The notes under the pieces were generated by a model. That model worked only from the letters and a program-made list of their open reading frames with translations, made no database searches and was not told the DNA's origin. The position numbers and the translations under genes were made by a program. A stretch of 62,224 nt of DNA, filler included, from Sphacelaria rigidula (Eukaryota), in NCBI GenBank assembly GCA_964200075.2. It is 6 parts of 6 records of this genome, joined end to end, with 100 filler letters (N's around TTAATTAATTAA, not from the genome) between each part and the next. Parts side by side here need not be neighbours in the genome. Positions count along the whole stretch, not along the records: positions 10,391 to 20,678 come from CAXNAA020006780.1; 5 more parts are not named here. One strand, given 5' to 3'. Of this stretch, positions 10,291 through 51,939 are shown piece by piece (positions within the stretch are counted from its first letter, which is position 1; each line of letters begins with the position of its first letter).

Positions 10291-10390
10291 NNNNNNNNNN
10301 NNNNNNNNNNNNNNNNNNNNNNNNNNNNNNNNNNTTAATTAATTAANNNNNNNNNNNNNNNNNNNNNNNNNNNNNNNNNNNNNNNNNNNN
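10291..10390. other. Artificial contig spacer (N44-TTAATTAATTAA-N44)
   Basis: 100-nt N run with a six-frame-stop linker. Confidence 0.98.
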
Positions 10391-10453
10391 GGATGTCTGA
10401 CACACTTATGAGCCTTTTTTTCGTGCAACCAAATACCCATCCCCTAACGTAGG

Positions 10454-13400
10454 ATGACTTTCATCATCTTGCTCGCCCAATATATATTGACCACCCGACG
10501 CGTGGACAAAGTGAGCGGGCAATATATATTACACACTCTTGTTGTACTGTCCAGGGTGTGCAACCTTTAAAATATAAATATACCCAACTGAAGGTCACCC
10601 TCGCGACAAATCTTGGCGCAGGACTGAGCGGCAACATACCGTTTCGAGCTGGCTTGAGCAGGACGCGATTTAACGCCGTTAGTCAGAAAGGCCGAATCCC
10701 AAAGACGGTGAGGATGTGTGCCGCGACAGACGAGGAAAACAGCGCAGCGGACCAGCCCCAAGTGTGGGCATCCTCTGTCTCTACAAAGAAGGAGCTTGCA
10801 CCCGCCATAAAGGAGGTATATGGGATCGTTGGTAAGAGCGAATCATGGGACTTCCTGCAGAATTTGATGTGCTTTCGTTTTCACCGCGGAGTGTGTTTAT
10901 TTACTGAGGTGCGACTGTTCGCCGCGACCTCCAAGGTTGGTCATCAAATGGCGGCGGAACCCAACCAGACGTCTTACTGCAAAGATCAGCAGCGTAGGGA
11001 CGGTGACACTCCACTCACATGGTCACAGCTTCATACGCGGTCGCCTGGCTGGCGATGATCACTCGTGATTGGCATGCAATAGTGTCGGATTCCTGTACGT
11101 TGCGTCTCCTCCCGTGAAAATATCTCATCCCCCCCCCTCCCCCCTCAGGTGACCACAGACGGCGAAACAGGATGTGGATAAGATATGTAAAAGGTTTTTG
11201 TGCAATGTATGGAAGGAACGTAATGCGCCGGAATGTTGAACGTGTCTCTATTAGGAGTAGGAACGGTGCTCCGTCTCGAAAGGGATGCGTGGGCAATGCT
11301 CAAACGACTAAGGCAAGCAACAAATGAGTACGCCCCCCTCCCACCAAAAAAGATGGTGAGACACCTATGAGGCAGTGTGTAAACCGTGGCTGTTTGTGGA
11401 AGTCGCGATGCCAGAAAATGAAGCAACTCATTGTAAGCTGTCATCCACATGCAGGATAATCAGTAGGCTTCGGGCCGACTAATCTTAGCAAGATGCAGCT
11501 CACTCTTCATGCGACTCACCGAACACATCACGGCGCTGCGCGCTTGGTGATTGAGTGCGAGCCTGGTCCAGTGAAAACCCGGCTTGCTCCGTCCCGGCTT
11601 TATAGGGATGCGAGGTCAATGGCCCTCTGATTGCGGTATTCAAGATCATGAGTACACCCCCCCCGCAAGTACCCGATCAAAATTGATGCCCGGGCCCGTG
11701 CACGTCTAGTTACTCTGAGGACTACTGTACAACCTCGGCAGTATTTGTCTGACGGACCATATGTCGAAACGAGCCACCGAAACGAGGCACGCCGCACAGT
11801 TTTGTCGAGGTCGACCCGATCCGGCTGATCTCGCTCCGCCACCTCCCCACGGCGCAACAGGCGGCAGAACGGGCGCTTGCTCAACTTCCTGAAGGCGCAT
11901 CGATCGACCTAGCATTAATACACGTTTCCAGCGTTTACGGAAACACGGAACGGCTAGAATTCGTAGTTCCCGAGTTGAGAAAGGCGGTGCCAGGTCTAGG
12001 CGCCGTGGTGGGATGCAGCTCCGCGGGGGCGGTGGGTATGAGGGGAAAGGGGCGTGCTGTAGAGGTGAGAGAAAATACGTGTGTGAGTACTCAATTGCTG
12101 TTGTTGCAGGGGGATGATCGCGCAAGGGTGTAAAGACGGCCGTGCAGATCATATCAATGGTGAAGATGCGATGCCTGTGAGCACCTGTGTCGAGATAGAC
12201 CTCTGTTGAAGTCGGATGCACCTAGATGTATAATTCGACCGCGTGTGGTAATCAACGCGCCTCAATAGATTCACTGTGCGTCGCGCGTGCTCTCGCCCGC
12301 ATTTTTTTTTTCAGGTAGAGAATAGAGTCTGCCTAGGGCTAACCTTGGCCACTTTACCGGGAGTTCGAGTACAGCCGTTCTACCTCAACGATATGGACGT
12401 GCCAGATCCATTGGACCCTCCGAGCGAATGGAAACGGGCCGTTAGGATGAGAGACTACGAGGAGCCTGCTGACGGGACGGGATGTGCGGAGGGCACGGGG
12501 GAACCTATTTTCTTGCTCTATGCAACACCTCAGTCGATCGATTCATTGCAGGATTACATCGCGGGTATGGATGTGGCATTCCCAAGGTCGGGGAAAATAG
12601 GAGCTATTGCGTCTACGGTGAGCAGGTGAGAGCTGGATGCTTCATCTGTGCTTTTGGATCCGGCATCGGTAGTCACTTCGACGTTCGGTTCAAGGGTGAA
12701 TATATGATTTTTTGCGGTGGAATATTGCACGATTCGGACGAATCATCGCCAGTTCGAATCACCAAATCCACGATTTTTCAGGCCTGATTGCTTAAAAAAG
12801 AGAAAAAAAGTTGGCCGCCGGTCAAAGGGGTCTCGACGCAATTTTTGCGCCATTCCACGTTCCCGGGCTGCGCGTACCTGGGTTTCAACGCTGAAAACAA
12901 AGTCTAAGGATTGATTCGTACGGTACGAACCAACTACACTATAATCAAGTAATTTCCAGACGAACCATGAATTCGTCCGACCCTTGGAGTGTTGTCTACA
13001 GTGGCAACGGATGCTTACATGGGCTTTGTGCACTGGGGCGTGTTCATGGCTGATGGATCAGGTGGCGGCGAGAGGCGACAATTTTTTTGTGTAGGACAAA
13101 ATACCTTGCTAGAATTGCTGCATGGATGTATAGCATAGAGCCGACACTCATTCACTACCGACCAACAAACGCTTGTCAAGACAAGCAACATATGGAAAAG
13201 ATTCTCCCGCTCCCGTGCCCTGGCTCCCGCCCTGCTGTCAACAACGCTAGTCTGACGAAGTCTTGCGTTTTCTTCGGGGAGAAGGGGACGAGCGGCACGA
13301 CCATGGAGGAAAGCTCCTTCTACAGGGAAGGGATGGTCGGCGTATCTTTGGCGGGCGATATCCGCATGCGGTCGTTCATTAGTCAAGGGGCGAGGCGTGT

Positions 13401-16400
13401 CGGACCGACATTTCACGTGGATAAGGTACTTCTAGTCGAAGGCGGTTCATCGCTCGGAGCAACACACGAACGCGCACTATTGGATACCGGTAGCGTGTAT
13501 ATTGTTTGCAATACTTGTGACGGTGTAGATGCTGGTTATCGATGGGGAGTACAGTCAGTACACGCGTGCCTTGTTTTGGCTTGTTGTTTTCTTGTGCGTC
13601 GACAGGCGACCAGGTACGTCTTGTGTGTCTGATGTCTCGACCTTTCACTGTGCTTCTATATATTAATCCATGGTGCGCTCGTGTATTACAGGTGCAGTCC
13701 CAGCAAATCGCACCAGCAAGCTGTGTGTTTTGGAACCCGCCCTCCGAGGCTAACAAAATGCGAACCGGGTGATCTCTCTGCTGACAGGTGGACGGACCGG
13801 TGGTTCAAACCTTGCGACTAGCCGAACGAGGAGCGGACGATAAGGGCCAGGATGATCGTATCAGCCCGGCTCTTCCGCCGCTTGCTATGATCAAGCAGGC
13901 AAGGCTTCCGCTCGAGCCTTGTCGGCAGAGAAATGAGATTTAGCTAGACGAATGAGGAGAAAGTGTTGAGCGCGGGGATGTGGTGTACTGGTCTCCTCTT
14001 GTGCTGCGTGATTGTGTGTCCTTGTCGTGCGGGGGAGGGGGGAGGGGGGGAGGGGTTGTGACCACAATCCAGTAACGCACGATTGTGTTCGTTTCACCGT
14101 CTCGTGCAGGTCGAGAACGAATTGACGGACCAAGACCGGTACCTGATGAAAGACGATCTCCTTGTTGGCATCGCCCCGGAGCTTGTGATGGACACCCCCA
14201 GTGAGCTACGGGCGGTCAGCAAAGGGGCTGGTGCACGCTTTGTCGTGCAGGGGATCGTCAGGTCAAATCTAACCCATTCGTTTCTGTCTCTCCAAGTCTG
14301 ATTTTCAACTGCGTAGTAGTACTGTTGGTGACCCTGGAGCTTTCTTACCAGACCACTGCTTGTGCATCAATCGACTTTATTGTTGAGACGCGCTCTTCAC
14401 GACCTTGAGTACGACCGCAGAGCACGAGAGATTTCACACGGGCGTGCCGTGGTACGGATCCTCACGAGTTGTATGCTTGATCTCCGATGCGTGTTTGCTG
14501 CCCTGCTTTGGTTTGCCAGGAAGAAGCCAAGTGAGGGTACCATAACGGTCGCAAGTGAGCTGACTCCAGGCTCTCGGCTTCAGTTCTTCGTGCGAGATAG
14601 GTGACCACCACATATTCTCATGGCACGTTGTAGAGCCGACGCTGACTCAGTATTGAAGCAGTCGAAAGAAACGCGACGTTGCTGGCTCCAGGTCGCCTTG
14701 AGAAAGCTAAATATCTGTATGTTCTCGCCGATGAAGTTGTCCACTCGCTGTCAGCTTATAACGTACTATACCGAAAGGTATGCGCTTTGTTTCTTCCCCA
14801 TTGATAGTGCCCGACGTCGCTGGTATGCGCTCATATGGACACAGAGTTATCCTTCGCCCCCATATCGCCCACGCCAATAAAAACAGGAAGGCCGCTGTAA
14901 AAGAGTTCAACTCCGCGCTGGTCGCCTACAAGCGCCGGCAACTCATGGAAACCCTCAACGCGTCATCATCTATCGAGGCTGATAGTGGTGATGCTGATGA
15001 TGCAGCCCAGAGCCCAGACGAAGCAAACTCAGAAGATGAGCCACAAGTCGCCGCCGCAGACGGCGTGGTCGACTCGCTTGGTTCTCAGAGAGCTGAGGAG
15101 GGTAACAGCGCAGGGGGGGGCTTCAGGGCGGCGGGAGCATTGATGTTTCCCGGATTGGACAGGGGTCGCACTCTGTGGGAGGAGGACGGCTACCAGAGTT
15201 CTTTGTTGCTCAAGACTGTGCCCGTTCCGTTGGGAGGATTTTTTGTGAACGGGGTCGCAGGTTTGTTTGTGCCATTGGTGATGTATCGTGCTGTGTATGA
15301 CATGGGGACAGTTTCCGTTCGGTTGCTGGTCGCGTGTTACACGTGTCGTGTTATAATATTTCGCTAACCGCGAGCTTAAACAAGCGAAAGTCAGCTGCAG
15401 TCTGGCCGCAGTGTGCTCAAGATCATGAATAGTATTATGGTGCCGGCCTTCCGGCTCGGTCCGTTGCAACTTCACTCACCCTCGCGTGATGAATTTTGAA
15501 GCACCTCCGCTAATACCCATCAACTCGCGACCGGCGCTGTGCTCGATTGCGCACACGGTAGGCTCCATCACGGAAGGGTCTCGCACGAGTCTCTTCGGTT
15601 CCAGCACAGCCGTTGCGGTCTTCTCGCCCATTACGGCTAGACGCACTACGATCTTTGCTGATGATGGCCAGGAAGAAGGGGAAGGAGATGAAACTTCAGG
15701 TGCGAGTGTTCCCCAGCGGACGCTCTGGACCGTGTGGCGTCCCCCATTTATTCCGTGTTCTTGTTGACAAGGGCTAGGCAATGGAGAAGCCTTTCCGTGT
15801 CAGGGTTGTATTTGCAGGCTACCAACGAGAGCATCATATGCTGATCGTCAGGTTGTCGGATTCGGATGGTCTTGGCTTCCAGTACAGTGAGCAAGATGCG
15901 TTTCCCTATCGTGAACCAGTACAGAATGGTACATGTTAGGGTAAGCTCAGTTCAGCACCCATAGTTTTTCAAAACTGACATACCATCTGATCGTTATTTT
16001 ATTTAACAGGCAGGGATGCGTGCGCTTGACGCAAGGCCACTGTCGCCCCCACGTTGCTCAGCTCCGTACTCTTTCATTTCGTGTTCGTTGCGACAACGCC
16101 CTCCTCATTTACTCAGACGCTGGCAATGCGCCGGGCATGTACGGGGACGGGGATGAGGTCTTCAGTGATGACAGCGATGATTTTACGGTCATTCGGAGAG
16201 ACATCAACTCCGGTCGACCCGTCGTGTCTGGCCCTGTGCTTTACAGTGTGGCTGAGACCGTGGCGCAGCCAAGGTGCGTCATAGCAGAATAGACGAATTA
16301 CTTCACCAACAATTGGGAGCATTCCAACTGTTCCACCTGTAGCGATTTCCTCTCGCCCATCTATTCTGTATCTCTTGCTGGTGCGATTGATTACTGTGGC

Positions 16401-19283
16401 AGGAATTCTCTGGAAGCGATAGTGTGGGAGAAGGAGGCAGAGGTGGACCGGTATCGCGATCGTTGGCCCATGGGCATGCTCGTCAGCCGAGTGAGAGCGT
16501 TTGGCCTCGTTGAGGAAAACAAACCTAGGGACGTTTTGGCGGCGTTGGTTGGCGGGAAGCGGGAAGGAGGCGTTGCCATGCTGGCAGAGGTATGCATGGG
16601 TGTCTTGTCTTCTCGACCGTACCGTGGTTTACTGTATGTCCTTGGACATTTTCTTGCATTTGGTTCATGATTGCGAACAGTGGTTTTTCACAGATGTGTA
16701 ACACGCCATGTTACTGGATGCAAAATCTGTCAAGCACGGCTTTAAGGTATCAGAACAACTTAGTGTACGTATCTTACGCAGATGGACAAAAGCGACTCCA
16801 CGATTTCATCAAATCATCCCCACGGCGGAAGAATACCAGGTTACAGACCGGTGCATACGTTTTAGTCTGGGATGCGGTCAGAACGTGGTATGCAACGACA
16901 GTATTGCAGGGTGCCACACTAGAACTGGAAGCCATATATGAGCATACGCGCTGACGGCAAGGTACAATCCTCGGCAAAAACCCAGACTGCTCCACTGCTT
17001 CGCAGTTTGCACCCGTGTCTTGTTAGTATCCGTGAACTCCCGTCCCTGGCCTGGTTTCGATGCCGCAGATCAAGAGGACGGCGCCAGTGATCGGGCCGAT
17101 AAATCGAGACATTCCGTTCGATGCGATGGCCATTTCTGTGGCGGTGGAGCTCGCTGGGGCGGCGGCGATCGCTGTCAACACCGACCGAAAGTTTTTCGGC
17201 TGCTCCTACGAAGACCTCACCACCGTCAGGGTAGGTGTCGGGCAGTACCTTGTCGAGATAGTTTTGTCGCTCTTCCTTCGACACGTGTTCATTGCGGGGT
17301 TTCAATTCGTGTGGGCCGTGGTCTCTCGGGTGCTGTTACATGTGTGTTTTCACGAGTTTCCCCCGAGATGAGAGCGCTGGCCTCGGTTCGCTTGTGTCCA
17401 CAACTGTTTGCTCCCAAGAAATGATGAAAATACACATTACGGGTATCGTGTGGATTATGGCGAAGGGAACAAGAGCCGTCAGTGCCGCTGCCTGCCCTGT
17501 GGTACTATGATACATAGGACGAATGTGTAGCTGTAGCTCCACGTTCTTCTGATTGGCAAGCTGAAGATGGCAACCACTGTCCACCGTTTTTCCCACCCCC
17601 CTGTGCGGTGCCCGTGATCGACTCGGCGCGTGTCATGCGTTCAGAGCGCCGTCAGCGTTCCCGTCATGTGCAGCGATGTGATGGTATATCCGTACCAGAT
17701 CTACCAGGCTAGACTTGCGGGGGCCGACGCTATTAAGCTCTTCGCGCCAGCTCTTCCAGACAAGGTATCACAAGCGGTATACGTTGCATTTGAGCTGTAG
17801 CGTTGGCTCGGTACCATCCAACCCGACAAAACTCGGCACTAAGTCCCAGCGCATTGGCCGCCACTAGGGCGAGTACATGTGGCGATGGCTGATCACTTGA
17901 CCAAACCTCATCAAACCACGGTCGATTCGCGGTTAGCGGTAGACGATGGCGAGCAAGCATCAACGTTTGGAACTGTGATGACATTCCCTGCGACCGTGTG
18001 TTGACTCAATTGCGGCATATGATGAAATCTTTGACTAGCTGTCGACTTTTTCGCACACTCTGCCTACCACTCGTGTGACGTATGTTGCCTCATGTCTTTC
18101 GCGACCATTTTTTGTTCACATTTTTTTTTTCTCGTGTGTGCGTGCGCTCTTCGTCACTGCGATGCGTGCTTTTTCGGGTGTGACAGGACCTTGTATATTT
18201 CCACAAGATCGCCGCGGCAATCGGCATGCAGAGTGTTGTAGCGGTTAGCTCCGTGAAACAAATGCTGATGGCCTTGCGAATTCCGGGCGTCAAAATGGTG
18301 TCCATCAACAATCGGAATACGGCAACGTGGGTGCTTGACGACACAAGAGTTGGCAAAATTATGGGAGACGCAGAGGGTGAGTGCGCGGTAATTTGACTGA
18401 CGAATTCATTGGTACCAATCCTTGAGTTGATCAACCTGCCCAACTCCGACGCAAGATGATACATGTGCTCGCATTTGACACTAATCAATACTAATTGTCC
18501 GTGCGCGCGAGCGGCGTTCGGGGCAGCATGTTTTTGACGTCGGCTCATGCTTGCACCGACCCTGTGCCCTCATCTGCAGTGCAACAAAAGTTGAAGGAAG
18601 TGGACGTGACCTTGTTGGTGGAGGCTGGACTCAAGACCAAGGCAGACATAGGTGCGTTCTGCAAACTTCTTCGTTCGCCTCGAGGTCGAATGTTCCGGGT
18701 TATTTCAACTGTTTCGACTTATTTTCATTACTCTGGGGTATCAAGCACAGACAACAACGTTTTCGTGAGATTGAGAGTAAAGCGCTGATTGGGAGGGGCT
18801 TTGATCATTCGCCTTAACTTAGCCTATTTTTCATTCCGTGTGTGCTTTTCTTTGCCCCCATCACTAGCGTGTGCTCACAGCTACACGTCGATATCCTACT
18901 CAGGGATATCACGGGCCTCAATGGCAAGCTACTACAGAGAGCATATCGGGCCTCGTGAAGGGGCATTTCGGAACTGAAACGACCCGTTCACTGATAAACC
19001 GCTTTCTACTCTCGATCGTATCCTCTACTGTCAATCTCACGAGAACGTTGTTAGACGTGTTGTGTAATAGTTGGGCCACCTGTCGACGGCTACATTTTTC
19101 TATACATTTTTCTTGTTCATGAAAGACGAGACGCTCCCGCGTTCCTGTGCCGTTGCTGTGTGCTATACCACCCCTCTTTTTGCAGATGCTGTCAAGGCTG
19201 CCGGCATCTCCGTTGTGTCGGTAGGGGAAGCGTTCCTCAAAACAGCGGAGCCAGGCAAGGTGGTTGAAGCCCTGCTAAGCTGA
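10454..19283 (+). CDS. FIST-N/FIST-C fused to an indole-3-glycerol-phosphate synthase (TrpC)-like domain, about 936 aa, probably plastid-targeted
   Basis: Phase-consistent exons: 10454-10510 (tentative), 10594-10815, 11861-12064, 12315-12625, 13251-13425, 13788-13898 (GC donor), 14110-14261, 14520-14600, 14887-15260, 15562-15699, 16117-16273, 16403-16589, 17069-17230, 17645-17764, 18187-18376, 18580-18651, 19186-19283; total 2811 nt, no internal stop. FIST motifs: WASSVST, DLALIHVSS, VVGCSSAG, EVENRVCLGLTL, ISQGARRVGP, LQFFVRD, LGGFFVNG. IGPS motifs: PRNSLEAIVWEKE, AEIKR, VNTDRKFFGCSYEDL, YQIYQARLAGADA, INNRN, EAG, VGEAF. Confidence 0.9.
12728..12986 (+). mobile_element. MITE family 1 (about 260 bp), intronic
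   Basis: Imperfect TIRs cacgattcggacgaatcat / atgaattcgtccgacccttg. Flanks gaatattg/gagtgttg resemble a decayed 8-bp TSD. Homologues at 26833-27093 and 28807-29068. Confidence 0.75.
18753..19052 (+). mobile_element. MITE family 2 (about 300 bp) with 4-bp TSD AGAC, intronic
   Basis: 27-bp TIR aacaacgttttcgtgagattgagagta / tactgtcaatctcacgagaacgttgtt. AGAC at 18749-18752 and 19053-19056. Inverted homologue at 34337-35072 and a partial copy at about 30996-31062. Confidence 0.85.
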
Positions 19284-20678
19284 TGCCCCCAGCAGCTAGA
19301 TAGTCCATCTTGCCGTGTGCTACTTCGCAAGACGTAGCTGTCATGCCTCTCGATGATACATGGTAGTGCCGATATGCCCACTCAACCTGATCTTCAGCCG
19401 CAGGCCCGGTGCGCCCCGTCTTTTGAAAGTCGTCGATTCTGCCCCACTTTGTGAGTAGATATAACGCGCGGTTTAGAAAATGACGCGGTTGATTCGTTCC
19501 TGTGCCACGTACCCACGTCGCTGCATCAGAGGACAGGACAGGACACTACGCGTGTTGTTGCTTGCGTCATCTGGTGTCGTAGCAATGAATTATGCATTTG
19601 TTTTGTGTGTCGCATCAAAACACAAGTGCGTGGCAGCAAGGGCGGGCCTTCTACGTACGTGCGTACCTCGATGATTTAAGGGAAACGATTTTACGTTCAT
19701 TTTTTGGGGAATCAGGATGGGCAAGGGTTACGAGCTAGCAAACATGGTACACAACAACAAATCCAACCGGGTGTCGATCGAAAACGTTCACGGTAGTAAC
19801 GAGACGTATATATCCATAATACTCGCCGTAAGCAAACAAGAGCGATACTCGATGTGCCGCAGAAAGCGCGTGTCCCGACAGCCATCTGAGCTTTTTCCCG
19901 CGAGAAAGTCGCTTTGATGTTTCCACACACACCAAAATGATGAAGTCACCTAATCAAAGGGTCACACTCGTGGTTGTTTCTGGAAACAACTGTGAAATCA
20001 AGACCATGCGGTGGAACGCCGATAGCGATGTGTAACTCAGCCGAGCTACGGGTTCTCCTCGCCCCTCTCGGGCGCTAGGAGCTGTACGTTCACCAACGCT
20101 CTGTTTTCCAAGGCACGCATCGGTCATCTCAAGACATGAGTCGAACCGCCACCCGCTCATATATTCTTGGAGGAGGCTACCATGGCTTTGCCCGCGTGCG
20201 GCATGCAGACCTACGCTATGCAGTCAGGATTCATTTGTCCTGGACAACGTGTGTGGGTGCGCGCACAGCACTTGTTGCTCCGTCGTCGTGAGAGACTGCA
20301 AACATTGTTTTCGTAGCAACGAAGCAGGTCGGACGACCGTCTGTCAGCTTCCGGTGGTAAACATCGGAACACGTGTGGTTACGTCGTGTAAGTTATTTTG
20401 AATCGGCGTCTTCGTCCGGCTTCCCTTGTTCCTGTAAGCGTTGCTCGATAGCCGCGCGCTTGTCCGCCGCTAGGTCTTGCGACGAGTGATCCTCACCCTT
20501 GGTGTCCCAAATCTTGATTTTGTTACACGTACAATCATTTGTATGCGTGGTTCGATCGTCAACAGGGGTCGAGGACGGGCGGGGGGGGGGGGGGGGGGGG
20601 GGGGGGGTGGTGGGGTTTTTTTTTTAAGCAGGGGAAGACCTAAAAAAAACTCAAACAAAGGGTGGGTTTATCTTTTGC

Positions 20679-20778
20679 NNNNNNNNNNNNNNNNNNNNNN
20701 NNNNNNNNNNNNNNNNNNNNNNTTAATTAATTAANNNNNNNNNNNNNNNNNNNNNNNNNNNNNNNNNNNNNNNNNNNN
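20679..20778. other. Artificial contig spacer
   Basis: 100-nt N run with TTAATTAATTAA linker. Confidence 0.98.
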
Positions 20779-22091: not shown

Positions 22092-23783
22092 GTATTTGGC
22101 ACCAACACGTTGTCGACGAGACCCCCCATGCTGTACGCAGGACATGTTTTCACGCTGGCCGTTCGGGATTGTCGTGCACTTGTTCCGTTTGTGATTCCGT
22201 TGGGGGCACGTGTACTGTAGCGCTGAACGCTATGAGTGTTCTGATCCTGTTCCTAAATACGTGAACGCCAGTACTGTATCCGTTGCTTGAACTAAGCATC
22301 GATGATGCGACGAACGCCCGTTGGTCACGGAAGAGCCTAGCTTGACCCTGACACCAGCCCCGAGATCGGAACAGTACGGTGTGTCCCACAACCTCCCGCA
22401 CGACGAAAGACCGACGCGTTGAGAGTTGTGAGTCCAGTTATTATGTCGATGCGGAGAGACTCGGGTACCATTTTCTGAGGGAAAGGGGCGTGGTCGTTGT
22501 GGCGACCGTGAACGGCAAATGAGGGGGAAAAGATCCGAATGTGTGGGCGCCATGGTTGGAGTTGGCGCGTAGGCTGCCCGGTACGATGTAGAGAGCGATG
22601 GCCTAGCAGAGGTACNNNNNNNNNNCCAGATAAGGTACGATTGAAAAATCATTCCTAGATCAGGTATACCTCGGCGAAATGTGGCCTACAAAAGGTGAGC
22701 GGGTTCTGGAGGCGACATGTCCGTTTTCGCGTGACCATATCTATCGAGGAACACGTTTCTTACCCGTTTTTTTTCGAGTCCCGGGTGACAATGACCCCCC
22801 CAAATGATATGCGTGAAATAAATATCCGGAGTAAAAACGTCAAAATGGCGTGTTTGGCTGTTTTCGCGTTTCTGGTCATTTTTCATACCTTTCTTAGACA
22901 AAAATGAGAAGGTATACCTTTTCTAGGCCATTGCCCCCGTTCTGATTGGGTCGGATCCGGGTCTATCGGGGGATACTTTTACGCATGCTCAATCTTCGCT
23001 ATCGTACTGCGCCATCTTGCGTAAAAAGAGAAAGTCTACCACTCCTCGATCTGTGCACCCGCGGGAAGAACTGCCGTGCCCAATGGTACAAAGCCGTCTT
23101 CCGTGAGCCGGCTGCCCTGCGGTTGGGGGTCGCTTGTTGATGTTTGCGGGCCGCTACTGCGGTGTACGAACCGGAACTATTGTACGTATTCATAGTATTC
23201 ACGGAAGGCACAACCACGAGAAACGACTCCGCAAGGGCGTTTTACCCGCGTGGAAGCTTTGCGAAAGAGAGGGCTGTGTGCATGAAGCTCCGTCGATCTG
23301 GGAGTTTCATTCCGTCCTTCAGCTGTAGTACTGATGGCATATTTGTTTCGCGGGAGCTACGGGAACATCAATGGAGATGCACACTGACTGTTGTACTGTA
23401 CTGTCAACTGTCTGTCCTGTAACGGTGTTCAGTGTCCAAGATGACGTGTATTTTCTTCGCATGAAACGATCCAGCGTCCACTTGCATCACTCCATCACAC
23501 GATCGATGATGATGGATGTTGTGGGGTTGTACTCGTACAAGATACAGGTCGGGACGATACAGTACGGTGTAGTGCAGCACAATCAGTGAAATGCTAACCC
23601 TCTTTCGGAAATATCGATGATGTAAGCCAGCCCGTGAGAAACTGCGGGAACAAATGTTGAAGGGGCAGCGGCGGTGAAAACATGTCAACAAGTACAGCTC
23701 CTCCTGCCCTCGTCCGTACTACAATTAGGTAAGTCCAGGGTGGATTCAGATTGAATCCTGGCAAATATAGCATGGAACCTCAC

Positions 23784-31066: not shown

Positions 31067-31166
31067 NNNNNNNNNNNNNNNNNNNNNNNNNNNNNNNNNN
31101 NNNNNNNNNNTTAATTAATTAANNNNNNNNNNNNNNNNNNNNNNNNNNNNNNNNNNNNNNNNNNNN
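31067..31166. other. Artificial contig spacer
   Basis: 100-nt N run with TTAATTAATTAA linker. Confidence 0.98.
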
Positions 31167-38500: not shown

Positions 38501-39871
38501 CCGTGACATGGACGGGCCAGAGCCATCTCGCTTCATGTGTCCGGTAACACTGCAGGAGATGAACGGCGCACACGCTTTCGTTGTATTGTTCAATACGGGC
38601 TGGGTCATGGCGGAGAAGGCTATCAAAGAAGTCGGCATCGATAGCTTGCAGGTAACGAGGCAGCATACCATGGTTTCGGGTGTGTTGAATGATGTTTTGG
38701 CGGGGAATTGGATGGGCGTGGCAAGCATGTCGAAGTCGAGGGGCCGTAGCTGCACGAGAGAGGCACGATTTCGTGTGCGATGATGAGGGAAGAGGAATGC
38801 CGTCGCCCACACGTTTGTATTGCAATTCAATCGTGGTGCGTGTTGTCATATGTGGTGTTGGTGTAAATCAAGCGCAGTCTTTTTTCTCTCTGCAGCGAGA
38901 ATTTCAGGAGGGCATCTCCGGTGACCTTGTGCCACGCGAACGTGTTGTTGAAACCCCTGGGAACTCGTGCGAGCAACACGGTAAATTTGGATGCACGCAA
39001 CTCCGGGTGGACGCGTCAAGTTTTATCTCATTGTGTTGTGCACACCGTGGCTCAACGTTTTGAAGCGTTGTATTCCCGCTGGCGTCTCCTTTTCTTTGCC
39101 CTTCACTACTGCATCCTTTCGAGAGGCAGCTGACCCCCGCCGCTAGATGAACAAATGATGCACGAGGCGAGTGTTCCTTGTTGGGACGTATTTTTTCGTC
39201 ATGCTTCGGTACCAGAGCTCCAAAATGCTCTTCCTTCAAAATAAAATAAAAGGTGAGCAATTCGTCTTACCGAGTTCGGAATGCGTTTCTTGAATCAGGA
39301 GGAATATGGGCCGTTCACGGAGGAAGACGTGATCCCCTTGGCCCCAACGGACGAGGAGCGGGAGGTGGCAAAACGAGCACTTCTGGCCAAGCGAGAGCGC
39401 GCTCGTGCTGCCAAAAGCGCTAAGAAGGCGTTGAAGAAGAGCGCCCGACGAGAAAAGTCAGTCGCCGCCGCTGCTGCCGCTGCCACCAGCGCGAGCACCT
39501 CATCATCTTCTTCAGGTGCACTTCGTGCCTCCGGAAGCGCACACCCAAGCCTTGGTGATGAAGCAAACGAAGGCCACGCGGAGCGAGGGAAAGGTAAGCG
39601 GGAAGGAGAAGTGCAGGAGAGTGCAGAGCACGCAGCGCGGATAGAGCACAAGAAAAACAAGAGGAGGAAAAGGGCGGAGCGGGGTGCGGCCGCGGTGACG
39701 GGCGGAGCGAGTGCGGGACCTGACTCGGCCAGACTGGCTGGCGCGGCGGCGGAGGCTGTGCAAAAGAACAAAGAGAGCAGTGCTGTATACGCGTCACTTT
39801 TCGGGAAGAAGGACGTATCGAACGAGCACTTGTTCATCGCTACCGCCGGCCACAGATACAACCTGGGGTAG
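35527..39871 (+). CDS. RTF2: Replication termination factor 2 homologue, 348 aa
   Basis: Exons 35527-35658, 37798-37869, 38035-38120 (GC donor), 38468-38651, 39299-39871; 1047 nt in frame. Motifs MGGDGG, CAISNERLREPVAACELGYLFNK, HIRGLKDIVE, FMCPVTLQEMNG, EEDVIPL, VYASLF. Confidence 0.93.
37064..37697 (+). repeat. Tandem duplication (unit about 330 bp), each unit ending in a SINE B 3' end, in RTF2 intron 1
   Basis: gcactctggtgg(c/t)ccaa(c/t)tggtcc at about 37069 and 37399; cggagtgctgatccaat at about 37266 and 37560; SINE B core at about 37310 and 37605. Confidence 0.7.
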
Positions 39872-41157
39872 TCGGCGCTTCTTGTAAATGGTGTACATGT
39901 GGTGTACGGTAGAGAAACGGATTACGGTTGCTTGAGTGTTTCCGGTTGATGGTGTGTGGCGAAGAGCAGGGTTAGACTACCGGTACTGCATGCACCTGTT
40001 GCTCCTGCTACCTGCGTTTGCGGTAGCTGACGTCTGCAGATTTCTGCGTTGTTTTGATTTCGCTTCTATTCGTAAAAACGCCAGGATTACTGATTGCTGC
40101 CGACATCAGGGGATACCTTGTAGACGCGCAACGTGGCTGTGTGCATATGAAAGTATTCTTCACATGAGTGTTGGTACTGTTGGCAGTCGGCGTATGCTGT
40201 ACCGTAGATTACCCCGGGTGCCGCATTGCACCAGCTTCGACGCGGTTTCATTCAAATCCTCAAGCACCCCCCGTTCGTGTGATTTTTTTATCGCCGTGTT
40301 TATGATGTAAGCCCAGAACGATTTACGTGTGGCGCAAGTCCTTTCTGCAAGGAATCCGCGTTCGTGTACGCGGATGGGGGCTTCTAGGTTGACTACACGT
40401 GGTATAGAATCATCACGTGCCAGTTTTCAAGTTGGATGTACAAATCTAGACAGAAACGTGGAGACGTCTGTCCGTGCAACGGCCACGGCCACGGCGAGTA
40501 CGGCATGCCGTAATGAGGCAAATACGGGATTGGTGTATTTATTGCGTATCGTGAAGTGATTTTTCTCGACATCTTTGCACACTTGAACTTTTCATTTTCC
40601 TTTCGATAGAGCAATATCTAGATGCCTCCCCCCCCCCCCCCCCCCCCCCCTACCAAACCCCCCTCCCTTTGTTCTTTTGTTGTGGGTGGGGTGTGGGTGG
40701 TGTTTTTGTTGTTGTGTGCGGGNNNNNNNNNNTTTTTTCTCTACATCTTTTCACACTTTACTTTTTTTTTTTTCTTTCGTTAGAGCAATATCTAGATTCC
40801 CCCCCCCCCCCCCCCCCCATTTCATGATCCTCTCCGTGTGTGTGTTTTTTTGGGAGAAGCGGTCTGTAGAGGCAATATTTTTGCCGGCTAGCCGTGAATT
40901 TTTTGTTGCACGGGTTGTCACGCGTCCCTTGCATGTGTGGGGTACCGAAGCCAACAATCTCCGCAAAAAAAATCGTTAGTGAGATTGTACACTCTGCTCC
41001 CTGCCCCACCACCCCCTTTGTGCGACGTTTTGTTGCCTAGTGGCCATAAGGTTCCACGTTTGATTCCCGGCTCGATCACCACGATGGACAAATAGAAAAC
41101 CTCCAAGTTAAGGGGGCAGTGGCAGTTACTGTTGTGCCTTGGTGTCGCCAGTGCAGG

Positions 41158-41454: not shown

Positions 41455-41554
41455 NNNNNNNNNNNNNNNNNNNNNNNNNNNNNNNNNNNNNNNNNNNNTT
41501 AATTAATTAANNNNNNNNNNNNNNNNNNNNNNNNNNNNNNNNNNNNNNNNNNNN
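41455..41554. other. Artificial contig spacer
   Basis: 100-nt N run with TTAATTAATTAA linker. Confidence 0.98.
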
Positions 41555-51839: not shown

Positions 51840-51939
51840 NNNNNNNNNNNNNNNNNNNNNNNNNNNNNNNNNNNNNNNNNNNNTTAATTAATTAANNNNN
51901 NNNNNNNNNNNNNNNNNNNNNNNNNNNNNNNNNNNNNNN
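51840..51939. other. Artificial contig spacer
   Basis: 100-nt N run with TTAATTAATTAA linker. Confidence 0.98.

What the first reader, a model, noticed from the sequence alone, without database searches (positions are those of the whole stretch)
10454..19283. FIST sensor fused to an apparently catalytically dead indole-3-glycerol-phosphate synthase: candidate plastid metabolite-sensing pseudoenzyme
Seen: 17 phase-compatible exons splice into one stop-free ORF of about 936 aa, with FIST-N, FIST-C, an acidic linker and a complete TrpC TIM barrel. Known: FIST domains are small-ligand sensory modules, usually standalone or joined to signalling outputs. IGPS catalysis depends on the Lys of the (R/C)KD motif (S. 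solfataricus K110) and the Glu of the LVEVH motif (E159). Seen: these read PVMCSDV (K to S, exon 17645) and GMQSVVAVS (E to A, exon 18187). SPSKG reads APVIG and ESG reads EAG, while ExK, NNR and the GE phosphate loop are kept. Inference: the barrel may still bind CdRP/IGP without turnover, making the protein a sensor or regulator of tryptophan/indole metabolism rather than an enzyme. I do not recall a characterised protein with this architecture, but could not search.
Basis: partly seen in the sequence, partly recalled or inferred. Interest (0 to 1): 0.88.

Follow-up and report, generated by a model that had tools for sequence, protein, structure and literature searches.

The report
FIST fused to catalytically disabled IGPS
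This brown-alga gene joins a FIST sensor-type module to a tryptophan-pathway barrel that has lost its two catalytic residues, and it belongs to an old, conserved algal family, probably plastid-located, that may be related to a malaria-parasite protein needed to build the plastid.

Summary
Homology-guided splicing gives 16 coding exons on the + strand (10622-19283). Spliced contigs of 3986 and 4059 nt from two runs cover the whole model as one transcript. At least one 5' exon was not located.

The product has FIST_N, FIST_C, an acidic linker and a complete cyanobacterial/plastid-type IGPS barrel. The Lys110 equivalent is Ser and the Glu159 equivalent is Ala. Ser211 is Ala, and Ser56 and Ser58 are lost. 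E51, K53, N180, R182, E210 and the Gly loops are kept.

This is not decay. All 44 IGPS-like sequences examined, at 25-45% identity, lack both residues. All 60 canonical hits and all 49 prokaryotic loci keep them. The IGPS-like sequences form one branch (SH-aLRT 100).

In 15 of 26 family N-termini I read a signal peptide followed by Phe, Tyr or Leu, as in complex-plastid targeting.

Plasmodium AMR1 is an 'IGPS-like' apicoplast protein of 790 aa without catalytic residues. It is essential for apicoplast biogenesis and did not complement trpC. I could not test homology to it.

The FIST model also resembles chorismatase (Z 10.8).

My reading: a non-IGPS, ligand-binding plastid protein of unknown biochemistry.

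The parts
10622..10815 (+). First located coding exon. The acceptor AG is at 10620-21 and the in-frame ATG at 10714. The frame is open upstream, and the 31 codons before the ATG read GLSGNIPFRAGLSRTRFNAVSQKGRIPKTVR, which is Ser/Arg-rich like a transit peptide. The conserved core starts at PQVWASS (10756).
   Evidence: Transcript pieces begin at 10619.
11861..12064 (+). Exon 2, start of FIST_N.
   Evidence: Joint 10813>11859, GT..AG (cut +2), in X1-X3.
12315..12625 (+). Exon 3, FIST_N.
   Evidence: Joint printed.
13251..13425 (+). Exon 4, end of FIST_N.
   Evidence: (FIST 22.0 bits). Joint printed.
13788..13898 (+). Exon 5, between FIST_N and FIST_C. It is followed by a GC-AG intron.
   Evidence: Joint 13894>14106 with 5 ambiguous letters.
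14110..14261 (+). Exon 6, FIST_C.
   Evidence: Record arithmetic.
14520..14600 (+). Exon 7, FIST_C.
   Evidence: Record arithmetic.
14887..15260 (+). Exon 8: FIST_C with an internal acidic insert, ending in GFFVNGV.
   Evidence: Listed as a piece.
15562..15699 (+). Exon 9: end of FIST_C and start of the acidic linker.
   Evidence: Record arithmetic (295 nt for exons 9+10).
16117..16273 (+). Exon 10: the acidic linker, then from 16176 (DDFTVIRRD) the N-terminal extension typical of cyanobacterial and plant IGPS.
16403..16589 (+). Exon 11: IGPS helices alpha0/alpha00 and strand 1. The Glu51 equivalent is at 16587-89.
   Evidence: Listed as a piece.
17069..17230 (+). Exon 12: the Lys53 equivalent is kept (17072-74). 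Ser56 is Ala (17081-83).
   Evidence: (IGPS 31.8 bits).
17645..17764 (+). Exon 13: PVMCSDV. The Lys110 equivalent is Ser (AGC, 17672-74).
18187..18376 (+). Exon 14: GMQSVVAVS. The Glu159 equivalent is Ala (GCG, 18241-43). In SINNRN, N180 (18307-09) and R182 (18313-15) are kept.
18580..18651 (+). Exon 15: LVEAGL. E210 is kept (18621-23), S211 is Ala (18624-26) and G212 is kept.
19186..19283 (+). Exon 16: VGEAF phosphate loop (G233 at 19224-26) and the stop codon. The 3' UTR continues to at least 19800.
   Evidence: Piece 19184-19800.

Best explanation
This is one expressed nuclear gene of a brown alga. It encodes a FIST_N-FIST_C module joined by an acidic linker to a complete cyanobacterial/plastid-type IGPS (TrpC) barrel.

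The barrel arose by duplication of the plastid-type IGPS. It lost the general acid (Lys110 equivalent) and the general base (Glu159 equivalent) at the base of a widespread eukaryotic family. Since then it has been kept under constraint, so the protein does not make indole-3-glycerol phosphate.

The barrel keeps the residues that, in real IGPS, hold the phosphate (Gly212 and Gly233 loops), the carboxylate (Arg182) and the sugar hydroxyls (Glu210). In brown algae it also keeps Glu51, Lys53 and Asn180. I therefore infer that it still binds a phosphorylated small molecule.

The FIST module has the fold of FBXO22's FIST domain and, more distantly, of chorismatase and cyclic amide hydrolases. I infer it is a second small-molecule site or the coupling part.

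The protein is most likely imported into the complex plastid. It probably does the job of the 'IGPS-like' protein AMR1 of apicomplexans, a plastid biogenesis or maintenance function unrelated to tryptophan synthesis.

Shown here: the gene structure, the transcript, the domains, the residue losses, family-wide conservation, one branch on the tree, and the fold. Inferred: plastid location for this species, ligand binding, and kinship and shared role with AMR1.
For: Gene and transcript. Searches give the exon model. One search shows spliced contigs of 3986 and 4059 nt across all exons in X2 and X3, with none of these joints in DNA run X5.

Domains..

Catalytic columns. HMMER alignments to solved IGPS 3tsm and 3qja pair 'RKDF' with 'CSDV' and 'VEVH' with 'VAVS', without gaps nearby.

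Family pattern. Of the 160 proteins tabulated, every canonical hit reads E-K-S-K-E at positions 51/53/56/110/159. Every FIST-fused or IGPS-like one lacks K110 and E159. In one search, 44 IGPS-like rows were compared with 60 canonical rows after I dropped 5 near-identical brown-algal rows. Position 110 is S 21, N 11, D 7, T 2 and three others. Position 159 is mostly V 17, T 11, S 7 and A 4. Shared with canonical IGPS are R182 at 93%, G212 at 87% and G233 at 93%. E210 is nearly invariant (at least 90%) in the 21-row alignment A2.

Trees. 33 IGPS-like rows separate from 33 canonical rows on one branch, SH-aLRT 100. The branch holds at 100 after adding 13 cyanobacterial rows and 1 Chloroflexota row.

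Origin. All 49 prokaryotic loci found with the family motif, 44 of them titled as cyanobacteria, read EKSKYENRES and have no FIST within 6 kb. The pre-barrel segment aligns with the 'IRRRP...ILE.IVW.KE.EV' N-terminal extension of cyanobacterial and plant-like IGPS.

Constraint. The window barrel is 64-69% identical to brown-algal orthologues. The linker is 22-34% identical.

Fold. The full-length model of P0002 has pLDDT 87.8 and pTM 0.86. Its barrel matches M. tuberculosis IGPS 3t44 with target TM-score 0.92 and rmsd 2.1 over 273 columns. The FIST model has pLDDT 87.3. It matches FBXO22 at Z 25.1, chorismatase 5a3k at Z 10.8 and barbiturase at Z 7.8. The next rows score 5.1 or less.

Distribution. 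Brown-algal orthologues carry names from NCBI and EukProt. An ESM Atlas cluster of 70 members is 100% IGPS and 81% FIST, all Eukaryota, with Bacillariophyta commonest.

Targeting. 15 of 26 family N-termini have a hydrophobic signal-peptide-like start followed by F (13), Y (1) or L (1). I read these by eye.

Literature. I read section 13 and passages of PMC6380595. PfAMR1 is IGPS-like, lacks the key residues, is required for apicoplast biogenesis and did not complement E. coli trpC. Vitrella has one canonical and two IGPS-like genes, with large extensions. In passages of PMC3637116, PF3D7_1363700 is 790 aa with a signal peptide. In passages of PMC8022201, AMR1 loss disturbs isoprenoid synthesis.
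Against: No sequence of AMR1 or of the Vitrella proteins could be obtained, so kinship is untested. The papers I read do not mention FIST.

The window's own presequence is missing. Of the 26 family N-termini, 11 show no signal peptide. Most of these start at or inside the conserved core and may be truncated gene models, but that is not shown.

Pocket residues other than R182, E210 and the Gly loops vary across the family (K53 57%; N180 replaced by S or T in most). This fits one common specific ligand poorly.

Family-specific conserved residues at the catalytic face could be a new active site. These are S789 and Q792 at 93% each, and N or H at 710 (P0002 numbering). That would favour the enzyme rival.

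No binding, localisation or phenotype data exist for any algal member.

Runs X1-X3 are labelled RNA only as a guess by the tool.
Confidence: 0.6

Rival explanations
1. It is a neofunctionalised enzyme. The barrel catalyses a different reaction on a phosphorylated substrate using new residues. The FIST module is a regulatory or second catalytic (chorismatase-like) domain, so the protein is not a pseudoenzyme.
For: Family-specific conserved residues sit at the C-terminal ends of the strands: S789 at 93%, Q792 at 93%, and N or H at 710. R182, E210 and the phosphate loops are retained. The FIST fold matches two enzyme families, chorismatase at Z 10.8 and barbiturase at Z 7.8. The authors of PMC6380595 (section 13 and Discussion passage read) propose a new biochemical function for AMR1. 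Passages of PMC8022201 report DOXP and MEP accumulation on AMR1 loss.
Against: No invariant acid/base pair replaces K110 and E159. Those two positions vary (S/N/D/T and V/T/S/A), and K53 is kept in only 57%. Fold likeness at 7-9% identity shows no function. Bacterial FIST-FIST_C proteins are described as sensors, not enzymes (review PMC8846402, passages read).
Confidence: 0.28
2. It is still a working IGPS that uses other residues. For example, the Lys on strand 4 (GADAIKL) could stand in for Lys110.
For: The fold is complete, and E51, K53, N180, R182 and E210 are kept in brown algae. A Lys or Arg occupies position 758 in 26 of 44 family members, where canonical IGPS has Leu.
Against: Both the general acid and the general base are absent in 44 of 44 members, and S211, S56 and S58 are lost. 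IGPS-like proteins of Vitrella and Plasmodium did not complement trpC, although the authors could not detect protein expression (PMC6380595, section 13). Position 758 is not conserved.
Confidence: 0.03
3. The barrel is a functionless relic or mere scaffold. Only the FIST module matters.
For: Catalytic residues are gone. FIST-only relatives of 420-800 aa exist among the hits.
Against: The barrel and its N-terminal extension are the best conserved parts. Residues 581-640 are 45-60% identical in distant members, against 35-44% for FIST. The IGPS-like branch has kept the domain through deep divergence.
Confidence: 0.07
4. It is a gene-model artefact. Two neighbouring genes (FIST and trpC-like) have been joined in silico.
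Against: Single spliced contigs of 3986 and 4059 nt span exons 1-16. The same fusion occurs in named brown algae and in distant members.
Confidence: 0.01

Closest known systems
Apicomplexan/chromerid 'IGPS-like' protein AMR1 (PF3D7_1363700; Tang et al. 2019, PMC6380595)
   Same: It has an IGPS-homologous TIM barrel without the catalytic residues and a large N-terminal extension. Its size is similar (790 aa against at least 908 aa). It has a signal peptide and is targeted to a red-lineage complex plastid. It coexists with a canonical IGPS in the free-living relative Vitrella.
   Different: No FIST domain is reported for AMR1 in the papers I read. Sequence kinship was not tested here. The function (apicoplast biogenesis) is shown only in Plasmodium. 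The alga is photosynthetic and is presumed to make tryptophan.
[quoted passage not shown]
   Same: The whole fold is shared, including the 'IRRRP...ILE.IVW.KE.EV' N-terminal extension and the YPYQ motif. E51, K53, N180, R182, E210, G212 and G233 are the same.
   Different: K110 is Ser, E159 is Ala, S211 is Ala, S56 is Ala and S58 is Ile. It is fused behind about 560 aa of FIST. It forms a separate branch from all canonical sequences sampled.
FIST_N/FIST_C proteins: human FBXO22, bacterial NosP and CdpA
   Same: Pfam FIST and FIST_C match. The model superposes on the FBXO22 FIST domain (Z 25.1, rmsd 3.1, 293 residues).
   Different: There is no F-box, kinase partner or c-di-GMP output. The output-side partner is a disabled metabolic barrel. 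No conserved His or Cys appears among the invariant and nearly invariant columns of alignments A2 and A4, so a haem ligand as proposed for NosP is not evident. That point was not tested further.
TrpF-TrpC pseudoenzyme of the colourless ochrophyte Leucomyxa (PMC11528492, passages read)
   Same: It is a TrpC-derived domain with the catalytic Lys replaced (by Ala), regarded as a plastid pseudoenzyme.
   Different: Its partner domain is different (TrpF, not FIST). It is apparently a recent loss in a tryptophan auxotroph, not an old family.

Membership tests
IGPS / TrpC (PF00218) | Sequence profile match over the whole barrel | tested here: met
   Window exons score 31.8, 31.8 and 18.9 bits. Orthologue P0002 scores 131.6 bits against a cut-off of 27, covering profile positions 4-253 of 254.
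IGPS / TrpC (PF00218) | (beta-alpha)8 barrel with the N-terminal helical extension | tested here: met
   The model of P0002 matches 3t44 with target TM-score 0.92 and rmsd 2.1. The extension aligns with cyanobacterial TrpC.
IGPS / TrpC (PF00218) | General acid Lys (S. solfataricus K110; numbering recalled) | tested here: not met
   Ser at codon 17672-74. It aligns to the Lys of 'RKD' in 3tsm and 3qja. It is absent in 44 of 44 family members.
IGPS / TrpC (PF00218) | General base Glu (E159) | tested here: not met
   Ala at codon 18241-43. It aligns to the Glu of 'VEVH'. It is absent in 44 of 44.
IGPS / TrpC (PF00218) | Substrate-holding residues E51, K53, N180, R182, E210; S211; Gly loops | tested here: inconclusive
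   E51, K53, N180, R182, E210, G212 and G233 are kept in the window. S211 is Ala, S56 is Ala and S58 is Ile. In one search the column I labelled N180 is really position 181. The true N180 column is P0002 position 808.
IGPS / TrpC (PF00218) | Converts CdRP to IGP and complements trpC | not testable with these tools
   This needs a bench assay. Relatives called IGPS-like did not complement (PMC6380595, section 13).
FIST (PF08495 + PF10442) | Profile matches to FIST_N and FIST_C | tested here: met
   P0002 scores 57.6 and 41.3 bits, above the cut-offs of 23.2 and 28.5. Single window exons score 22.0 and 14.8 bits, below the cut-off on their own. The window exons match a P0002-derived FIST profile at E 1e-45 to 1e-5.
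FIST (PF08495 + PF10442) | FIST fold as solved in FBXO22 | tested here: met
   The model of the Laminaria orthologue P0009 matches 8ua3_C at Z 25.1, rmsd 3.1, 293 aligned residues.
FIST (PF08495 + PF10442) | Binds a small ligand (NO/haem in NosP and CdpA) | not testable with these tools
   Only the review passages in PMC8846402 were read. No NosP sequence was compared.
AMR1 / 'IGPS-like' plastid proteins | IGPS-homologous barrel lacking the catalytic residues | tested here: met
AMR1 / 'IGPS-like' plastid proteins | Sequence kinship with PfAMR1 or the Vitrella IGPS-like proteins | not testable with these tools
   No tool could supply those sequences. An Atlas search that skipped FIST clusters gave no usable hit.
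AMR1 / 'IGPS-like' plastid proteins | Signal peptide and plastid targeting | tested here: inconclusive
   The window's 5' exon was not found. 15 of 26 relatives have a signal-peptide-like start followed by F, Y or L, judged by eye without a predictor.
AMR1 / 'IGPS-like' plastid proteins | Needed for plastid biogenesis | not testable with these tools
   Needs genetics.
Chorismatase / cyclic amide hydrolase ('Toblerone') fold | Three-repeat RidA/YjgF-like fold | tested here: inconclusive
   5a3k_A matches at Z 10.8 (rmsd 4.7, 248 aligned, 7% identity) and 5hwe_A at Z 7.8. RidA proteins match the first 110 residues at Z about 4. Foldseek E is 1e-5 with TM-scores of 0.2-0.3.

The most novel reading that the evidence does not exclude
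The FIST-IGPS-like family is the algal counterpart of AMR1. It would be a factor common to red-lineage complex plastids (ochrophytes, chromerids, apicomplexans). In it, a disabled plastid-type TrpC barrel and a chorismatase-like FIST module together read a chorismate/tryptophan-branch or tetrapyrrole metabolite and couple it to plastid biogenesis. The unexplained N-terminal half of AMR1 would then be a diverged FIST module.
Probability: 0.25. Interest if true: 0.85.

Novelty: new variant of a known kind. Interest (0 to 1): 0.62.

Why it matters
Automatic pipelines name this family 'indole-3-glycerol-phosphate synthase' (Atlas cluster name). Metabolic reconstructions of brown algae and diatoms may therefore count a non-enzyme as TrpC.

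The family is old, conserved and uncharacterised, and it probably sits in complex plastids. If it is the same family as AMR1, free-living and genetically tractable algae would offer a way to find the biochemical role of a protein essential to the malaria parasite's plastid. The FIST half would also give the first hint of how that protein is built.

I found no paper that mentions a FIST domain together with IGPS (0 papers) or with plastids (0 papers).

Tried and rejected
- Whole genome: none is held. A separate intact trpC in this organism could not be sought. The window itself holds no second IGPS-like frame.
Taxa of the distant members P0010-P0035 are therefore unknown.
- Third homologous-protein search, with alignment A2: returned only the eight brown-algal proteins already known.
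- Atlas search skipping FIST clusters: no usable hit.
- The look-up of sequencing runs: no RNA holder is listed on record. X1-X4 are 'RNA?' by guess.
- tblastn with the N-termini of P0002, P0003, P0005 and P0010: found no upstream exon in the window.
- Complex prediction of the FIST part against the barrel part: not folded, under a rule of the tool, so no verdict. The full-length pTM of 0.86 hints at a fixed arrangement, but I saw no coordinates or error map.
- Prokaryotic fusion: none among 49 loci, and no FIST within 6 kb of them. This was one motif-based scan, not an exhaustive one.
- Literature search was badly framed (two of four terms sufficed) and says nothing.
- Supplements of PMC6380595 (S6 Fig alignment) and PMC11528492 could not be seen. 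They may show AMR1 residues that bear on kinship.
Full report
WHAT IS THERE

The window is eukaryotic DNA with introns. Stop-to-stop frames on the + strand between 10.4 and 19.3 kb carry pieces of FIST and IGPS. One exon used as a query found an 886-aa EukProt protein, P0002, with Pfam FIST, FIST_C and IGPS.

tblastn of P0002 on the window gave 16 colinear matches. A script then chose, for each gap, the GT/GC..AG pair that kept the frame and best fitted P0002. The result is a 16-exon model with 14 GT-AG introns and one GC-AG intron. It encodes 877 aa from the ATG at 10714 and is 67% identical to P0002.

TRANSCRIPT

Four runs of one study hold about 0.3 of the sampled words of the stretch. That is roughly the exonic share. 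Runs of a second study hold 0.47 to 0.95.

Laid on 10391-19800, contigs of 3986 nt (X2) and 4059 nt (X3) run through all exons. A contig of 1845 nt (X1) covers the first eight. Joints for introns 1-5 are printed, with GT..AG ends or a compatible shift. The remaining introns follow from the record coordinates. The gaps of 519, 295 and 282 nt between listed pieces equal the sums of exons 4-7, 9-10 and 12-13, and 191+71 nt equals exons 14+15.

DNA run X5 has none of these joints, and one of its contigs runs unbroken from 12935 to 18777. The tool labels X1-X3 as RNA only by guess. Spliced forms absent from the DNA run are what one expects of RNA.

The contigs start to fit at 10619, next to an AG at 10620-21. 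They carry 26, 99 and 212 more 5' letters that lie nowhere in 10391-10618. So the ATG at 10714 is probably internal. At least one further 5' exon exists, and I did not find it. Directly upstream lies a linker of 44 N + TTAATTAATTAA + 44 N, so the missing exon may simply be outside the block.

THE CATALYTIC RESIDUES

HMMER alignments of P0002 to solved IGPS from Brucella (3tsm) and M. tuberculosis (3qja) place Ser under the Lys of RKD and Ala under the Glu of VEVH. They place Gly under the Ser of ESG. ExK, NxR, E210 and the GE loop are identical.

In the window these are codons 17672-74 (AGC, Ser) and 18241-43 (GCG, Ala). S211 is Ala, S56 is Ala and S58 is Ile. E51, K53, N180, R182, E210, G212 and G233 are kept.

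The S. solfataricus numbers and the roles of these residues are recalled from the IGPS literature. They come from no call. One correction: in my table the column headed N180 is position 181. The true N180 column is P0002 position 808.

NOT DECAY BUT A FAMILY

Named orthologues with the same three Pfam domains occur in Ectocarpus, Ascophyllum and Discosporangium. Partial ones occur in Undaria, Hapterophycus and Laminaria. All are 'unnamed protein product' or carry only EukProt gene ids.

A full HMMER scan of 1.84 billion representatives gave 8796 hits at E up to 1e-3 and 89 at E up to 1e-30. The top of the list is filled by proteins of 700-1050 aa that match both halves.

I aligned the IGPS part of all 160 proteins plus the window product to one profile. 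Every canonical hit reads E-K-S-K-E at positions 51/53/56/110/159. Every FIST-fused or IGPS-like sequence lacks both K110 and E159.

One search compared 44 IGPS-like rows with 60 canonical rows, after I dropped five near-identical brown-algal rows:
- Position 110 is S 21, N 11, D 7, T 2 and three others.
- Position 159 is mostly V 17, T 11, S 7 and A 4.
- R182 (93%), G212 (87%) and G233 (93%) stay shared with real IGPS.
- K53 drops to 57%, and N180 is mostly S or T outside the brown algae.
- S789 and Q792 (93% each) and N or H at 710 are conserved only in this family.

On trees of the barrel, 33 IGPS-like and 33 canonical rows (those with at least 235 of 287 columns) separate on one branch. 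SH-aLRT is 100. It is again 100 with 13 cyanobacterial rows and one Chloroflexota row added. These are quick searches, and the root is not inferred. The window groups with the brown algae (98-99).

Identity of the window product to brown-algal orthologues is 64-69% in the barrel, 77-83% in the pre-barrel segment, 54-84% in FIST and 22-34% in the linker. This is protein-level evidence of constraint. I had no coding sequences for dN/dS.

ORIGIN OF THE BARREL

A motif scan of one genome per prokaryotic species returned 49 loci, 44 of them titled as cyanobacteria. They match only residues from about 594 to the end. All 49 read EKSKYENRES, so they are intact enzymes, and none has FIST within 6 kb.

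The most conserved segment of the family (DDFxVxRRDxxxGRxxxxGxVxYSVAExxxxPxNxLExxVWxKExEVDRxR) aligns with the N-terminal extension of cyanobacterial and plant-like IGPS. The nearest canonical hits start with plant-type transit-peptide-like sequences.

So the domain is a copy of the plastid-type enzyme, complete with its extension. No prokaryotic fusion was seen in this one scan.

FOLD

The full-length model of P0002 is confident (pLDDT 87.8, pTM 0.86). Its barrel superposes on M. tuberculosis IGPS with target TM-score 0.92 and rmsd 2.1.

The FIST part, modelled from the Laminaria fragment P0009 (pLDDT 87.3), matches the FIST domain of FBXO22 at Z 25.1. It then matches a chorismatase (5a3k, Z 10.8, 248 residues, 7% identity) and barbiturase (Z 7.8). 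Everything else scores 5.1 or less. Foldseek agrees on FBXO22 and the cyclic amide hydrolases. A shared fold shows no function, but it does say the FIST module is built like enzymes that hold small ring compounds at a three-repeat interface.

LOCATION

Of the 26 family sequences whose N-termini I listed, 15 begin with a hydrophobic signal-peptide-like stretch. It is followed by a small residue and then F (13), Y (1) or L (1). This is the pattern I recall for proteins imported into diatom and other red-lineage complex plastids. I judged it by eye, because no predictor was available. The other 11 start at or inside the conserved core.

An Atlas cluster of 70 eukaryotic members (IGPS 100%, FIST 81%) has Bacillariophyta as the commonest known phylum.

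WHAT IS KNOWN

No paper in the searched library holds 'FIST domain' together with 'indole-3-glycerol phosphate synthase' or with 'plastid'.

The search did turn up Tang et al. 2019 (PMC6380595; section 13 and passages read). PfAMR1 has a TIM barrel closest to IGPS, lacks the key residues and is required for apicoplast biogenesis. It is kept in tryptophan auxotrophs, and IGPS-like proteins are lost together with the plastid in Cryptosporidium. It did not complement E. coli trpC, though protein was not detectable. [quoted passage not shown]

PMC3637116 (passages read) gives 790 aa and a signal peptide. PMC8022201 (passages read) reports raised DOXP and MEP and impaired isoprenoid synthesis on AMR1 loss.

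Bacterial FIST-FIST_C proteins are described as NO or haem sensors, namely NosP and CdpA (review PMC8846402, passages read). A TrpF-TrpC pseudoenzyme with the Lys replaced is reported in a colourless ochrophyte (PMC11528492, passages read).

VERDICT

The thing is a member of an old eukaryotic family, not a one-off.

The sensor idea remains one of two live readings. The other is a new enzyme. The most useful new lead is the probable link to AMR1, which I could not test because no tool supplies those sequences.

Noticed in passing
window 10291-10390, 20679-20778, 31067-31166, 41455-41554, 51840-51939: Each is 44 N + TTAATTAATTAA + 44 N, spaced about 10,388 bases apart. The window looks like blocks of about 10.29 kb joined by all-frame stop linkers. 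Adjacency across them is unverified, and the gene's 5' exon may be lost at the first one.
   Followed up: partly
window 11019-11646, 12589-12902, 18555-19182 (introns 1, 3 and 15): Summed contig depth in DNA run X5 reaches 1.3-2.7 million, 0.13 million and 0.12-0.34 million, against about 70 elsewhere. There are also many odd joints. These look like highly repeated elements inside the introns.
   Followed up: no
window 13899-14109: Intron 5 has a GC donor (cagGCAAGG) rather than GT. The spliced contigs support it.
   Followed up: yes
window 39257-39868 (+): An open frame of 204 aa matches Pfam Rtf2 RING-finger (35.4 bits). Seven other long frames in the window matched nothing.
   Followed up: no
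model m67e7413045bf (Laminaria orthologue P0009, FIST part): The FIST_N-FIST_C module superposes on chorismatase (5a3k, Z 10.8) and barbiturase (Z 7.8). Its first 110 residues superpose on RidA/YjgF proteins at Z about 4. FIST may be a member of that three-repeat fold class.
   Followed up: partly
proteins P0028, P0031, P0035, P0058, P0060, P0069, P0072, P0104: These form a second, well separated subfamily of the IGPS-like branch (SH-aLRT 100). It reads D or N at position 110 and mostly V at 159, often with S at position 181 and Q-E at 210-211. Paralogues therefore exist, which recalls the two IGPS-like genes reported in Vitrella.
   Followed up: partly
window 22616-22625 and 40723-40732: Two runs of 10 N, probably ordinary scaffold gaps.
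   Followed up: no
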